Source of the DNA: Fibrobacteria bacterium | GTDB taxonomy: Bacteria > Fibrobacterota > Fibrobacteria > UBA11236 | Direction: 5' to 3' | Length of the DNA: 47,656 nucleotides | Assembly: GCA_041746255.1 (NCBI GenBank) | Contig: JBGTHM010000075.1 | Location: forward strand, 1-47,656 | In this document: piece after piece, positions 12,001 through 18,000 of the stretch | Layout: the number at the start of each line of letters is the position of its first letter | How positions within the stretch are numbered: position 1 is the stretch's first letter | Position numbers: made by a program

Positions 12001-15000
12001 CCATTGCGGGTGATACCCTGGAGATCGCAATTTCAAATACGAAAAATGGATTCGCCGGTTCGGGAAAGGATTCCATTTCCGTGGTAACCGACACCAAAGG
12101 ACAATACCGTACCCTGGTTCAGGCTGATGTTCTGGGTGAATCCGTCATTCGCGCCTATGCACTCGGAGCCGAGAAAAAGGAAACCTTGTTTTTCACCAAC
12201 GAACGGATCACGCTGAGTTCCAACCAATCCAGCATGGTGGGCGACGGAATTTCCACCGTCACCATTAATGTGAACTTGAGGGACGACGACGACAAGCCGG
12301 TTGTCGACGCCGATTTAAGATGGACCACGACATTCGGCGAAATCGTGGGTACTCCGTTTACCAAGACCGGGTCCGACGGTAAGAGCAGTCGGGTACTTCG
12401 CAGCAACCCGGGAACCGGTTTGGCTACAGTACATGTCGAAGCCCGAAAAGGAGGAAAATTACTGGCCGCGGGCGTACATACCATCAAGGTTACGGCCCAA
12501 AAAGTGCATCGTTTGCAATTCATGGTCACGCCGGATAACATTCCGGTGAAGGTGGGCGAGGCGATTTTGACGGCACGCGCCTATGACAAGGAAGACAATA
12601 TCATCGACGGCGCCTTGATAGGATTCCGCATCATAAAGGGAGCCGGCGGCGGAGATGAGACCATCAAGCCACCGGTTGATTACACCAAGTCCGGAGCCGC
12701 ACAAGCCTCGTTTTTTGCCGGAGGGGTCATCAGCTTTTACCGTAGCGTAAGATTGGCGGCGGTCGCTCTGGAAGTCAGCGGATCGGATACCTTGATAATC
12801 GCCTCCTCGGATACCATAGGGATAACCGTCTCTGGGCCCCCGCATCGAATCAGTGTCGGCCGCGACATTTTCAAGGGTGAGAATCCCAAGGATGGAACAT
12901 TTTCGCTACCGGTTAGCGCGGTGGTAACGGATGTCAATGGAAACCTGGTCGCCGACGGTACCTTGGTTAATTTTAGCGCTCAGCCGGTGGGTATGACTAT
13001 TTATAAGAAGGGCGCCACTTTGGCCCGCTGGGGGTTGACATACATCATCCATGATTCCATTGCCACCTTCATGCGCTGGAGCGATTATAATTTCAACGGA
13101 AGGCTCGATCCCGGGGAAGAACCCAGCCGCTTCAACACCAGTAACCCCTATCGGGGCGAAGACTTGGACGGAAACGGATTCATCAACGAGGGCGAACCTT
13201 TCGAAGATATTAATCGAAACGGAATATGGGATACCCTCCCCGAACCCTTTTATATCGTGAGGGAGGCGGATTTAATTAATCCTGATCCGGATAATCCGGA
13301 TAGTACAGGCGGAATTCGCCGTTTGGGTGACACGGTTTATGCCGACCTCAACCGGAATGGCAGGCTGGATTTGGTGGAACCCTGGACGGATCTCAATAAT
13401 AACGGAGAATGCGATTGCGCCGGAAAATTCAATGAGAAAGGATTGATTGAGTACAAATTCTACGGCAATAGCGAGGTCAAAAGACCCTTTCCAGGCGATG
13501 TGGCTGTCGGTATCGCCAAGGAAATTCCCACCAAGGGTGGAAAAGCCGTCAATAAGGTCACGTATGTACAATCGGACGCCTGGCGTGTGAACATCCGGGT
13601 TTCCGCAGAAGCCAACGGTAGGCGCAGCACCGATGAATTCCTTCTTCCCGTCATCGTAGCCCAGGATTAAGCCTAAATGAAAAAATACCAACTTTTTACC
13701 GGCATGTCCCTTTTTGCTTGCCTATCCGCAAGTGGTTTCCCACCCGGGTCCCCCATGGGTGAATTCGGGCCGGGTCAGGTTGCCGTGAGCGTTTTCGCAG
13801 ACCATAGCGGGCAAGACTTGTTCAAAAACGATTTGGCCGGTTCGACCTTGAATACCGGCGGATTGAGCATGGACTATGGCCCGTGGTCTTTTTTACAATT
13901 CGGTGCTTTTATCGGCGCCACTCAATTCAATGTGGAGGTTCCCGGTTCTAAGCGGAATCAATCCGATGTACTCGCCTTCGAGACAAACCCATCGCTGGCC
14001 TATGGCGGCTCCGCTAAGCTGGCGACACCAAGGTTTTTTTCTCGTACCACGGCCATGGTCGGTTATGGAAGCGCCACCTTATTCAGTGCGGAAGATGACG
14101 CCCGCAATGTGAAGAAGGGCATCGCCTATAAAGCCGGCGGCGGTGTTCAGCTTCAGTTTTGGCCCGCGTTCAATATGATATTGGGAGGCGAGTTCTATGC
14201 CATTGATGGCGAACAAACCTCACGATTGGTCACTAAGCCGGCGCCTTACTCCAATTCCGATCAATTTCGGGGCCTTCTCGGTTTTGAGGTTTATTTTCCG
14301 GGAAAGAACCGTCCCTTTATCAGTCTGGCATTTCGCCCCACCGGAGCCGTGGGATGGAATGACGACTATGGCCTGGAGAACGCCTCAATCAGCCTGTCTT
14401 TGGGAAGCATAACCAGCCTTCCAGGGAAAACCCCTTCCAGCGGTCTCGACGACGACAGCGACTTTTAAAATCGAATCGGCGTACACGCGTACCTGGGTAA
14501 CAGCTGTTAGCCTTCGTCCAGTAACCATTCTTCGATAATATCGAGGAATAGCTCCCCGTCCCGGCGACCGTATTCCATCAACTCCCGGGCATATTCTTTA
14601 TCGAATAGCAGGTAGCTCAGCATATCGGAAGAAATCCATCCCCCAAAAAGATAGCGTAGGGTTTTAGGAAACCGACCGCGAAAATGCGAGGCGATTACGT
14701 TGAAATCAAGGGTGGGAACCACCCGGCATAAATCGATTATTCTCGCGCCGCGCTCTTCCTCGGGCAACCGACTGGCCATCATATTCACGCGGTTCATGAA
14801 TTGCGAATCGATTTCCACGGCGTCGAGAAACATGGAATCGAGCATGGTCGCTGCAATACGCCCCACCGTGGGGGCCATATGGGTAATGCCTTGTTCCACG
14901 TCCCCGCGCAAGCTGATATTGATGATGCGTTCGGCGCCCAACCGGATGGCGGGATTCAGCGGGGTCATATTGCGCAGCGATCCATCGCCGTAATAATGCC

Positions 15001-18000
15001 CGTCTACATGAACAGGTGGAAAAATCAGAGGAACCGCGCAGGATGCCAGTACATGCTCCAACGACAGGGAAGTGCGTACTCCCCGTAAAGTCGTTCTTTC
15101 CCAAGGCGGGCAGGCCTGCTTGGTCTGATAAAAGGTAACGTTTTTCATTTCGGTATAGTCGAAGCAATTGATGGCGAGGCTGTGGTCGGGAAGGGTTCGC
15201 AGGCGCTGTTGCACCTGCCCCATGTCGAGATTTTCCCGTAAGAATGCCGTAAGGGGAGTGGTATCCAGCACCGAATTCACTAGGGTATCCGTAGCGCTTT
15301 TGCGAGCGTAACGGGAGGAATGCACCAAGCGCATGATATTGCGCGCCATCGTTTTCAGATCGGATTCGAAGACGTCGTCGGTGCGGATATTTCCCCATAG
15401 GGCCTCGAGGATTTCCACGCCGCGCGCGTAATTCGGGGCGGATTGCATGAGGCGAACCGCGTTGATGGATCCGGCCGAGACGCCGCAAATGATTTCGATA
15501 TTTCCGTTGCGGCGGAAGATGTCCTTCCAGGCGCTCAGAATTCCCGCCTGGTAAGCGGCTCGCGCGCCGCCACCGCTGAGAATCAATGCTACTTTCTTTC
15601 TAGCCATTTCCTTGCGCCCCACAAAGACTTCAGCTTTTCCTTATCCAAGCGAATTGATTGTGATCAAAATAGAGAAGTCTGGAATCCTTAGCGAAAATTT
15701 CAGCCACCGCACGGGTGATTTCCATTATACAACTATTGGAGGGTCGCGTCAGCTTGCACTTTCCGGGCCCAATCCCGGATGACCATGGCGGATAATTGGG
15801 ACGATCGCATGCTCTGGTAGGATTGATGTATGAGCATGGTGCAAATGGCTATTCCCATCTCGGGGTTATCCTTGAAGCGGGCATAACCGATGAACCAATC
15901 GTAGCGGCCCGGGGGCGAGTCTCCGGTCAGCGAACCGGTTTTGCCTCCCAACTCCAACTTGTCGAGAAGATCTCGGCGCAGGATGCTGTGAAATCCTTTG
16001 CGAGCTGTTCCCATACCAACGGTCGCCTCCATCAAGGCTTGCATGCGTGGGAGGTTCTTCGCGCTTACGAAGGGTTGCGAATGCGGTTTCCATTCCAAAT
16101 CCAAAGGCATTTCCTCCCCTGTTTCCAGGTTGACTAAGCTTTGCGCCAAGCGACTTGGCCGCAAATAACCGTCGTCGCCAATGCCCCTGGCCATGAAAAG
16201 GGCGTGGAAGGGAGAAATGGTCACATCGCGGGTAAACCCGCTGGCATGTTCGGCCAAGGCGAAACCCGAATCGGGTGCGGAATAATGGCTGGCCGACAGT
16301 GCGGAAAGAGGCCAGGCCCCATTGAATCCGAGCCGATCCGCAACGGATTTGAGTTGAGTGGCGCCGATAGCCAAACCCAAAATCCCGAAAGCGGGATTCA
16401 CGGATCTTCCGAAGGCCTCTTCCAAGGAAAGCGTGAGAGCGGCTTTCTCGGGCTGTGCCAGCAATTGCCATCGGTAAAGAGTATGCATTGACCCTATGTG
16501 CGGAACGCCTTCGAGAGCGTATTGATGGCTTTTTTCGATGACCGCAAGTGCGGTGATTATTTTACTGAGCGATGCTGCGGGAAAAGTAGAAGACAGCGCC
16601 ATGCGGGGTGTCTGTGTGACGGTAGAATCGCTTCTCTCTCCTACGGCGAGCATTAAACCGGTTTTCAAGTCACAGACAAGTACAACCGCGTTTTCAGGTC
16701 GTTGCCGCCGCAAGTGGTCCAAGAGTTTGCGCGATAGAGCCGTATCCGGACTATACTGCGCCAGGTAGGGAACACCTGCGAGGTCGATGGTATCCGGTTT
16801 CGGGTAGTGCCGGAGTGGGGAACTCAAGTCCGCCATAGGGGGGATTCGGATTTTGCTGTCCGCGGTGATGACGATATCCTCTTCGGTAATCTGCCCTGGC
16901 GAATAATCAGGTGTTCGATTCCAATGCATGCGCCAGGCTACTATCATTCCGACAAGGAAAAGCAACGCAATCGGCTTCTTCCACGCAACCCTCCTTTTAC
17001 CGCGGAAGCCTCGACCTTTAAACCGGCCGGCAAAATCGGAATGTTGAAGTTTGATATTTCTCCCCTTGAAGCGATGAGATGGATGGCCGGGAATAGCGGG
17101 TTACAACGACTGATTTCGAAGGACTCATGCCCCGAATCGAACGTCTATACTATAGCCAAATAAGCGGTCGAAAGAAAGCATTGCGGACAGGAATTCGTAA
17201 GGGATCAGAGCGGAAGCCCGGTTTGCGGATCCGAACTTCGAAAAACCGCGGTACGATAGTGCTTCAGCTCCTCAACCGATTCGCGTATATCGGCCAGCGC
17301 ACGATGGGTTTCCGATTTAGGCATTTCCGGCAGCTTCGGATACCATCGTTTACTCAATTCCTTGATGGAGCTGATGTCCACGATTCGGTAATGACAGAAC
17401 GCATTCAAGGTCGGCATATATTTATCCAGAAACCGCCTATCCTGCCATATGGAATTTCCACACAAGGGGGATTTGCCGGGATTGCAGTGTAGCCGTAAAA
17501 ATTCCAGCACCTGATTCTCCGCCTCCGCTTCTGTGCAGGCCGAGGCGCGCACTCTCTCGATGAGACCGGATGCCCCATGATGGCTCTGGTTCCAAGCGTC
17601 CATACCGGCCAATATCTCTTCCGGCTGGGAGATGACCAATTCCGGGCCTTCGGCGAGGATTTCCAAATTCCCATCGGTTACCAAGCAGGCGATTTCCAAT
17701 ATCCTGTCGCGAGAGGGCTCCAGCCCCGTCATTTCCAAATCCATCCACACCAAATTTTCCGGCAAAACGGCTCCCTTTGTTAAGTTTTAAATTTAATTCC
17801 CTTCGGCTTGAAATCTTCATTCCGAGGCTAAATTCCGGAAGCCTACAATGGTGCGGTTCCGATAAGAGTGGAAAATTTACCATGGTAAAAGATGTCGTCG
17901 TCACCGGTATGGGCGTAGTCAGCCCTCTGGGCAACTCCCCGGAAACAATGTTCGCCAATCTGCTGCAAGGCCGCTCAGGTATAGGGCCCATTGAAAGATT

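What a model noticed while it worked through the whole genome (the two positions that open the first line are those of the whole stretch)
14507..16929. Loss of the ribosome assembly GTPase Era in a 4.6-Mb free-living bacterium and in its whole class
No era gene is found in this genome or in any searched genome of class Fibrobacteria, while every searched genome of the other classes has it, often right behind the PBP gene whose homologue here (g02162) is followed by a patatin gene instead. RbfA, RimM, RsgA, KsgA, YbeY and the anti-Shine-Dalgarno tail are kept, so 30S maturation works without Era in a lineage that is not genome-reduced.
Evidence so far: TIGR00436: 0 of 25 class genomes; 0 of 18 class vs 23 of 23 other classes; rings in 10 bacterial controls. 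An outgroup Era finds only Der, MnmE, YihA, HflX, Obg here. pbp-era order in 5 of 10 outgroup regions. Other factors in calls 4-8; 16S 3' end in call 196.
(Added by a program. Inside this text positions count along the whole contig: contig position 1 is position 1 of the stretch shown here. "Call 12" and the like, gene names such as g00115 and contig names such as C1 are that model's own, and its searches are not shown. The text may have been shortened before it was handed on; [...] marks where a part breaks off. The agent that wrote the report below was given it as the finding of a first reader that could run no searches.)

Follow-up and report, generated by a model that had tools for sequence, protein, structure and literature searches.

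The report
Whole bacterial class lacking Era GTPase
A ribosome-building protein called Era, thought to be lost only by bacteria with shrunken genomes, is missing from this normal-sized genome and from its whole class, and also from several spirochaete groups, so these bacteria offer natural cases for asking how ribosomes are built without it.

Summary
The absence is real. All Era-like hits in this 4.59-Mb genome belong to other GTPases, and no Era KH domain exists. Of 208 class genomes, one carries Era, on a contig whose Era and neighbour are Treponema-like, a probable binning contaminant. Four closed class genomes were scored exhaustively with no Era; 86 of 88 sister-class genomes have it. 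The window is only indirect evidence: pbp precedes era in 8 of 18 sister regions, but patatin follows pbp only in this order. The loss is not unique: Era was found in 1 of 61 genomes of a Leptospirales-containing class and 41 of 151 Spirochaetota. A 2023 review confines loss to genome-reduced groups, and ten literature searches found no report of these cases. RbfA, KsgA, RsgA, RimM, RimP, YbeY, bS21, the anti-SD tail and SD use are kept. No replacement was found; most likely assembly runs through parallel routes on these factors (inferred). A class-wide acidic uS11 tail is a lead, but is not exclusive. 'Free-living' was not tested.

The parts
14507..15622 (-). Patatin-like phospholipase (GGGAR, GVSAG, DGS motifs; start GTG 15622 or ATG 15607). 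It occupies the slot downstream of pbp where sister classes often have era. Unrelated to ribosome assembly.
   Evidence: PF01734 E 1.1e-25; motifs; follows pbp in 19 of 21 f1/f2 loci, 0 of 9 f5 loci
15623..15732 (.). 110-bp spacer between pbp and patatin; no era remnant
   Evidence: sequence; no Era-HMM hit here in the six-frame search of segments of 20 aa or more or in 30 class pbp loci
15733..17055 (-). Membrane-anchored transpeptidase-domain penicillin-binding protein with SxxK, SxN and KTG motifs; homologue of the gene that precedes era in sister classes. Start inferred at ATC 17055 from an SD-like GGGAG and the conserved KLQ N-terminus; the ORF listing gives TTG 16965.
   Evidence: PF00905 E 4.7e-18; best hit of 8 of 8 era-adjacent PBPs, 26-34% identity, E 1e-28 to 1e-49, one-way only; motifs; start; found in 70 of 71 class genomes
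17205..17765 (-). RNase_T-family exonuclease (oligoribonuclease-like; name recalled), upstream of pbp across the class
   Evidence: PF00929 E 5e-36; present in 28 of 30 class pbp loci
17777..19120 (+). FabF-like ketoacyl synthase (name recalled from sequence), divergent from the exonuclease-pbp unit; part of the class-wide block
   Evidence: ORF; present in 26 of 30 class pbp loci

Best explanation
SHOWN: era was lost once in the stem of class Fibrobacteria; it is absent from this genome and, apart from one probable contaminant contig, from all 208 species-level genomes held, while sister classes keep it. The rest of the small-subunit pathway and a normal, functional anti-SD tail are intact. 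INFERRED (about 60%): there is no dedicated substitute. The 30S platform closes by the slower parallel routes that exist even in Era-depleted cells: YbeY acts on uS11, uS11 and bS21 are installed, KsgA binds h45, and RbfA, the other type-II KH protein that binds the base of h45, enters directly without the Era-to-RbfA switch, followed by RsgA. The precursor's own trailer (CUCCUU pairing with AAGGAG) can cover the anti-SD until 3' trimming; this is a common bacterial feature that may permit the loss rather than compensate for it. Era therefore behaves as a rate and quality-control factor that whole non-reduced lineages can drop, which has also happened in Spirochaetota.
For: Absence. Contaminant: Era 83% and neighbouring HAD hydrolase 84% identical to Treponema-titled loci, where the two genes are also neighbours; the Era nests among them in a tree. 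Kept factors: KsgA, RsgA, YbeY, RNase III, RbfA, Rel, LepA and RNase E/G over cut-off, RimP and RNase R below model cut-offs but best matches; RimM 5 of 5; RbfA 71 of 71; bS21 120 of 121; uS11 90 of 91; YbeY 5 of 5 and 5 of 5. No second KH_2 protein besides uS3 and NusA; RbfA of ordinary length; no class-diagnostic 16S column in h23/h24, h45 or the tail among 12 found. SD motif 9.0% at -11 against 0.8% at internal ATGs. PMC10582724 section 16: Era-depleted particles take parallel routes, and RbfA and Era bind overlapping h45 sites. Era is not essential in S. aureus (PMC6738653 abstract). Parallel losses.
Against: Nothing here measures assembly; the bypass is inferred from missing evidence for a substitute, and I could not profile whole proteomes for class-specific gains. 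Era-depleted E. coli particles still fail to recruit bS1, bS21 and uS11, so retained factors alone are not enough there. uS11 has a longer acidic N-terminal segment in 37 of 37 class genomes, which could be a real adaptation. The single-loss reading rests on the class being monophyletic as given by the tool; I built no species tree of the phylum.
Confidence: 0.6

Rival explanations
1. The loss is real but is offset by a built-in adaptation: the acidic N-terminal tail of uS11, or an unrecognised class-specific protein, does Era's job of holding the platform open and loading uS11.
For: uS11 has 38-53 residues (6-10 acidic) before the FNN motif in 37 of 37 class genomes against a median of 25 in 36 others; ten core positions are also class-specific. 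uS11 loading is Era's proposed role (PMC10582724).
Against: 9 of 36 Era-bearing-class genomes also have long uS11 tails; Era-less spirochaetes have uS11 of ordinary length, about 123-141 residues; family f4 was not sampled; one evolutionary event gives many class-specific traits by descent.
Confidence: 0.22
2. A paralogous GTPase (Der, RsgA, YihA, HflX) has taken over the Era step.
For: All are present; Der is Era's closest paralogue in score; era interacts genetically with rsgA.
Against: Each is single-copy in G000, fits its own family over cut-off and has no Era-type KH domain.
Confidence: 0.1
3. Era is present but too divergent or split to be detected.
For: In the phylum-wide search only 8 first-look candidates per genome were scored; absence rests on homology.
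Against: The same search found 86 of 88 sister Eras; exhaustive scoring in G000 and five more class genomes accounts for every hit within the G-domain; HMMs from the nearest relatives' Eras and a KH-only HMM find nothing.
Confidence: 0.05
4. The gene is missing through assembly gaps or binning.
For: G000 is in 130 contigs and most class genomes are drafts.
Against: Single-contig genomes G002, G010, G060, G080 and G013 lack it; 207 of 208 independent assemblies lack it while bS21, RbfA and uS11 are recovered almost always.
Confidence: 0.01

Closest known systems
Era loss in Chlamydia, Dependentiae and most CPR/Patescibacteria (PMC10582724 section 5; PMC12641178, era in 19.4% of CPR genomes)
   Same: Clade-level secondary loss of era
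   Different: Those groups are genome-reduced and lose other factors and rRNA helices; Fibrobacteria have 1.6-6.8-Mb genomes, a 1528-nt 16S and keep the other 30S factors tested
Patchy era in Planctomycetota, Elusimicrobiota, Synergistota (legend of Fig. 1A, PMC10582724)
   Same: Era missing from some bacteria that are not all reduced
   Different: Reported as present in some species and absent in others, without detail; here the split follows a class boundary, 0 native of 208 against 86 of 88
Viable era deletion in Staphylococcus aureus (PMC6738653) and other non-essential cases listed in PMC10582724
   Same: 30S subunits can be made without Era
   Different: Laboratory mutants are sick and cold-sensitive; here an entire class has diversified without the gene
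Era-less Spirochaetota groups found here (class of G296 and five further supported clades)
   Same: No Era, YbeY kept, canonical GAUCACCUCC tail, genomes mostly 2-5.5 Mb
   Different: Another phylum; no uS11 extension; number of independent losses unresolved

Membership tests
Era GTPase family (any G000 protein) | Single TRAFAC G-domain followed by a type-II KH domain, about 300 aa, over the TIGR00436 cut-off across the model | tested here: not met
   No match passes model position 177 of 270; only the two Der domains summed pass the cut-off; KH_2 hits only uS3 and NusA
Era GTPase family (any G000 protein) | Best family assignment is Era rather than a paralogue | tested here: not met
   Hits are Der, HflX, MnmE, YihA, Obg and FeoB, each over its own cut-off
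Class-wide gene loss | Absent from closed genomes and from all sampled families, present in sister classes | tested here: met
   8 of 8 class families lack a native Era, 13 of 13 other families have it
Class-wide gene loss | Exceptions explained by contamination or transfer | tested here: met
   G134 contig: Era 83% and neighbour 84% identical to Treponema-titled loci; read coverage not checked, so a recent transfer is not excluded
Reductive Era loss (Chlamydia/CPR type) | Strong genome reduction | tested here: not met
   G000 4.59 Mb; class genomes up to 6.8 Mb, closed G002 5.8 Mb; smallest seen 1.6 Mb
Reductive Era loss (Chlamydia/CPR type) | Co-loss of other biogenesis factors, r-proteins and rRNA helices | tested here: not met
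   methyltransferases RsmB/D/H were not confirmed
Non-SD-led translation (Bacteroidia type) | No SD enrichment before start codons | tested here: not met
   SD peak at -11, about tenfold over internal ATGs
Era-independent 30S assembly route | Mature 30S formed efficiently with known order of factors | not testable with these tools
   Needs precursor purification or cryo-EM
Free-living lifestyle of G000 | Growth independent of a host | not tested
   Only genome size is known

The most novel reading that the evidence does not exclude
Fibrobacteria run a distinct, Era-free route to the 30S platform in which the ribosome supplies its own chaperoning: an acidic uS11 tail stands in for Era at the head-platform cleft, the precursor trailer masks the anti-SD, and RbfA binds h45 from the start; freed from Era, the GAUCA recognition motif has drifted to GAUUA twice in the class. 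Spirochaete lineages reached Era independence separately by other means.
Probability: 0.15. Interest if true: 0.8.

Novelty: new variant of a known kind. Interest (0 to 1): 0.57.

Why it matters
The 2023 review of Era states that among known bacteria only extremely genome-reduced groups escaped the need for it, and lists as its first open question what defines Era's presence and essentiality (PMC10582724). A sharp class boundary (0 native of 208 against 86 of 88) in normal-sized genomes, repeated in Spirochaetota, gives paired Era-minus and Era-plus relatives for comparing ribosomes and precursors. It also matters in practice: era is flagged as a BAC120 marker, so its absence in these groups is biology, not incompleteness. 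The limits are that this is an absence without a demonstrated mechanism, and that viable era deletions are already known.

Tried and rejected
(1) G134 as a true exception: rejected, the contig is Treponema-like. (2) G233: Der. (3) A database protein named 'GTPase Era [Fibrobacter sp.]' (P0010): 93% identical to the Era of sister-class genome G180, so a labelling matter. (4) Changed Era-binding site in 16S: none shared by the class; 12 diagnostic columns lie elsewhere. GAUCA reads GAUUA in 23 of 32 class 16S genes (22 in f5, plus G010) but stays GAUCA in G000; I recall GAUUA also from Era-bearing Rickettsia (not checked). (5) Anti-SD/trailer hairpin as compensation: AAGGA follows the tail in 32 of 32 class genes against 2 of 16 sister-class genes, and in 22 of 23 genes of G296's class against 1 of 31 of G381's class, but fold energies do not differ between the Fibrobacterota groups (-6.0 against -5.5 kcal/mol) and 11 of 14 named bacteria of other phyla have the same trailer (their era was not checked). 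Kept only as possibly permissive. (6) Loss of SD-led initiation: rejected. (7) Co-loss of bS21, RbfA, RimM, YbeY: rejected. (8) Extended or altered RbfA: none seen. (9) Patatin as the class-wide replacement at the era site: rejected. (10) Motif searches for RsmB, RsmH, RNase J, RNase Y, KhpA/B gave nothing usable and are no evidence of absence. (11) Earlier notes of the scan: two unrelated findings, not used.
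Full report
What is at the coordinates. The span holds two minus-strand genes: a patatin at 14507-15622 (PF01734, E 1e-25) and a transpeptidase-domain PBP ending at 15733 (PF00905, E 5e-18). Upstream lie an RNase_T-family exonuclease and, divergently, a FabF-like gene (names beyond Pfam are recalled). The finding concerns a gene that is not there, so the work was done on whole genomes.

Absence from this genome. TIGR00436 gives 7 matches in G000 with all 32 candidates scored; none passes model position 177 of 270, and only the two Der domains summed exceed the cut-off. The proteins are Der, HflX, MnmE, YihA, Obg and FeoB, each over its own NCBIfam cut-off. An HMM from 26 sister-class Eras run without filters on six frames found only these; one from 146 sequences agreed; a KH-only HMM had best E 0.5. 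Pfam KH_2 finds only uS3 and NusA in G000 and the same pattern in closed genome G013.

Absence from the class. All 296 phylum genomes were searched: 208 in the class (families f1-f8, G000 included) and 88 in 13 other families. Two class genomes matched. G233's match is Der (474-aa frame, 50% identical to G000 Der). G134's is a true Era on an 8.6-kb contig, 83% identical to Eras of Treponema-titled records; a neighbouring hydrolase is 84% identical to the gene beside era in those records, and the Era nests among them in a tree. It is most likely misbinned; 0 of the 13 other genomes of its genus have it. In the other classes 86 of 88 have Era; the misses are G174 (91% complete) and one f15 genome. 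One search scored only 8 candidates per genome, so I repeated the search exhaustively on G002, G010, G060, G080 (single contigs, 5.8, 1.6, 3.1, 3.8 Mb) and G031: no match passed model position 178. Ten of ten bacterial controls ring. The class name comes from a record title; sister groups are named Chitinivibrionales and Chitinispirillaceae in protein labels. One such label reads 'Fibrobacter sp.', but that protein is 93% identical to the Era of sister-class genome G180. G059 is marked unpublished; it is one row in the class tallies and one pbp locus, and no conclusion depends on it.

The window as a former era site. In 8 of 18 sister-class era regions, from 7 families, era directly follows a PBP whose best G000 hit is the window's PBP (26-34% identity, E 1e-28 to 1e-49; reciprocal test not possible). 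Within the class the PBP is found in 70 of 71 genomes, in a fabF/exonuclease/pbp block; patatin follows in 19 of 21 f1/f2 loci and another gene in 9 of 9 f5 loci; no Era remnant is seen in 30 loci. Upstream neighbours differ from those in sister classes. The window is thus consistent with an ancestral pbp-era link but does not show a patatin-for-era swap.

What is kept. G000 has KsgA, RsgA, YbeY, RNase III, RbfA, Rel, LepA and RNase E/G over cut-off, with RimP, RNase R and PhoH as best matches, RimM, RNase PH and PNPase. Across the phylum RbfA was found in 71 of 71, bS21 in 120 of 121 and uS11 in 90 of 91 genomes, YbeY in 4 of 4 closed class genomes. The 16S gene is 1528 nt and ends in the canonical h45-GAUCACCUCCUUU. 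SD motifs peak at -11 in 9.0% of 1449 likely starts against 0.8% of internal ATGs, so the anti-SD is in use.

Search for compensation. Comparing 32 class with 15 sister-class 16S genes gave 12 diagnostic columns, none in h23/h24, h45 or the tail. The GAUCA motif that Era's KH domain reads (PMC10582724 section 10) is GAUUA in 23 of 32 class genes, in f5 and separately in G010, and in 0 of 16 sister genes, one of which reads GAACA; this fits relaxed constraint but is weak. RbfA is ordinary. The precursor trailer can pair with the anti-SD through AAGGA in 32 of 32 class genes against 2 of 16, and 22 of 23 against 1 of 31 in a spirochaete contrast, but the sister-class hairpins are about as stable and 11 of 14 named bacteria from other phyla share the trailer, E. 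coli being one that does not. uS11 carries a 38-53-residue acidic-basic N-terminal segment in 37 of 37 class genomes against a median of 25 elsewhere, yet 9 of 36 sister-class genomes also have long tails (G204 dropped as unparsed, f4 unsampled), and Era-less spirochaetes do not.

The loss is not unique. Two Leptospirales-titled genomes lacked Era. In their class Era was found in 1 of 61 genomes of 2.5-5.5 Mb, as a fragment at the edge of a 5.9-kb contig. In a phylum draw 41 of 151 had it, while 10 of 10 genomes from the class of a Spirochaetia-titled record did. A tree of uS13, uS11 and RpoA from 70 of these genomes (15 with Era, 55 without, the latter inferred from not being listed) shows six supported Era-less groups with an unresolved backbone; two resemble Leptospira and Brachyspira by my recall only. 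Five Era-less genomes scored exhaustively had no full-length match and all kept YbeY. The tool gives no completeness or taxonomy for these genomes.

Mechanism. Shown: the gene is gone and the rest of the pathway tested stands. From the literature: Era helps dock h23 and load uS11 and bS21, and is then exchanged for RbfA at the base of h45; depleted cells build some particles by parallel routes (PMC10582724 section 16); YbeY modifies uS11 enzymatically (10.64898/2026.08.26.747336 abstract; 10.64898/2026.08.26.747345 three passages); era can be deleted in S. aureus (PMC6738653 abstract). Inferred: Fibrobacteria rely on YbeY, KsgA, RbfA and RsgA without a dedicated substitute (0.6); a built-in or unknown substitute (0.22) and paralogue takeover (0.1) remain open. 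A preprint links Era to release of RelA from ribosomes in E. coli (10.64898/2026.04.21.719802, abstract only); G000 keeps a long Rel, and I did not pursue this.

Novelty. PMC10582724 (abstract, sections 4 part 1, 10, 16, 36 and passages read; figure not visible) says only extremely genome-reduced groups lost era, notes patchy presence in Planctomycetota, Elusimicrobiota and Synergistota, and has no mention of Fibrobacter in its text. PMC12641178 (abstract, passages, supplement parts 1 and 249, two supplement searches) gives era in 97.3% of non-CPR genomes, includes 20 Fibrobacterota and flags era as a BAC120 marker, without naming who lacks it. PMC6144821 was seen as passages and not used. Ten searches found no report of Era loss in Fibrobacteria or spirochaetes; subscription papers, figures and bioRxiv supplements were out of reach, and public marker tables probably already hold the raw fact. 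The scan's earlier notes hold nothing on it.

Verdict. A solid, class-wide loss of a near-universal assembly factor in non-reduced bacteria, one of several such losses; a new variant of a known kind, useful for an explicitly open question, with mechanism unproven. Interest 0.57.

Noticed in passing
class of G296 (G301-G359) and Spirochaetota draw G475-G583: Era not found in 60 of 61 genomes of a Leptospirales-containing class and in 110 of 151 Spirochaetota, in at least six supported groups including closed genomes
   Followed up: partly
G000:C89:24830-27016 and G000:C30:22446-24572: Two full-length PNPase genes, 75% identical; four other genomes tested have one
   Followed up: partly
G000:C40:11506-11964 (L108): uS11 with an acidic N-terminal extension in 37 of 37 class genomes; some sister-class uS11 carry tails of over 100 residues (G214, G219)
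   Followed up: partly
L135, L137-L141, L144-L158, L204, L205: 16S tail reads GAUUACCUCC instead of GAUCACCUCC in family f5 and in G010
   Followed up: partly
L289-L314: In G381's class the 16S trailer hairpin is shifted (CUUUCU pairing with AGAAAG), leaving most of the anti-SD unpaired
   Followed up: partly
L028 (G134:C200); L208 (G101:C101); L310 (G426:C71); L320 (G334:C17): Contigs or 16S fragments that look foreign to their bins
   Followed up: partly
window 17055 (- strand): The PBP probably starts at a non-canonical ATC behind an SD-like GGGAG; the N-terminal KLQ motif is shared with relatives
   Followed up: partly
G010 (1.6 Mb, one contig, same order): A much smaller closed genome in the order; lacks the PBP homologue with this query but keeps RbfA, YbeY and bS21
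   Followed up: no
window 11151-14468: Large protein with three Big_1 domains followed by a 263-aa protein without Pfam match, the latter conserved next to the patatin in 10 of 30 loci
   Followed up: no
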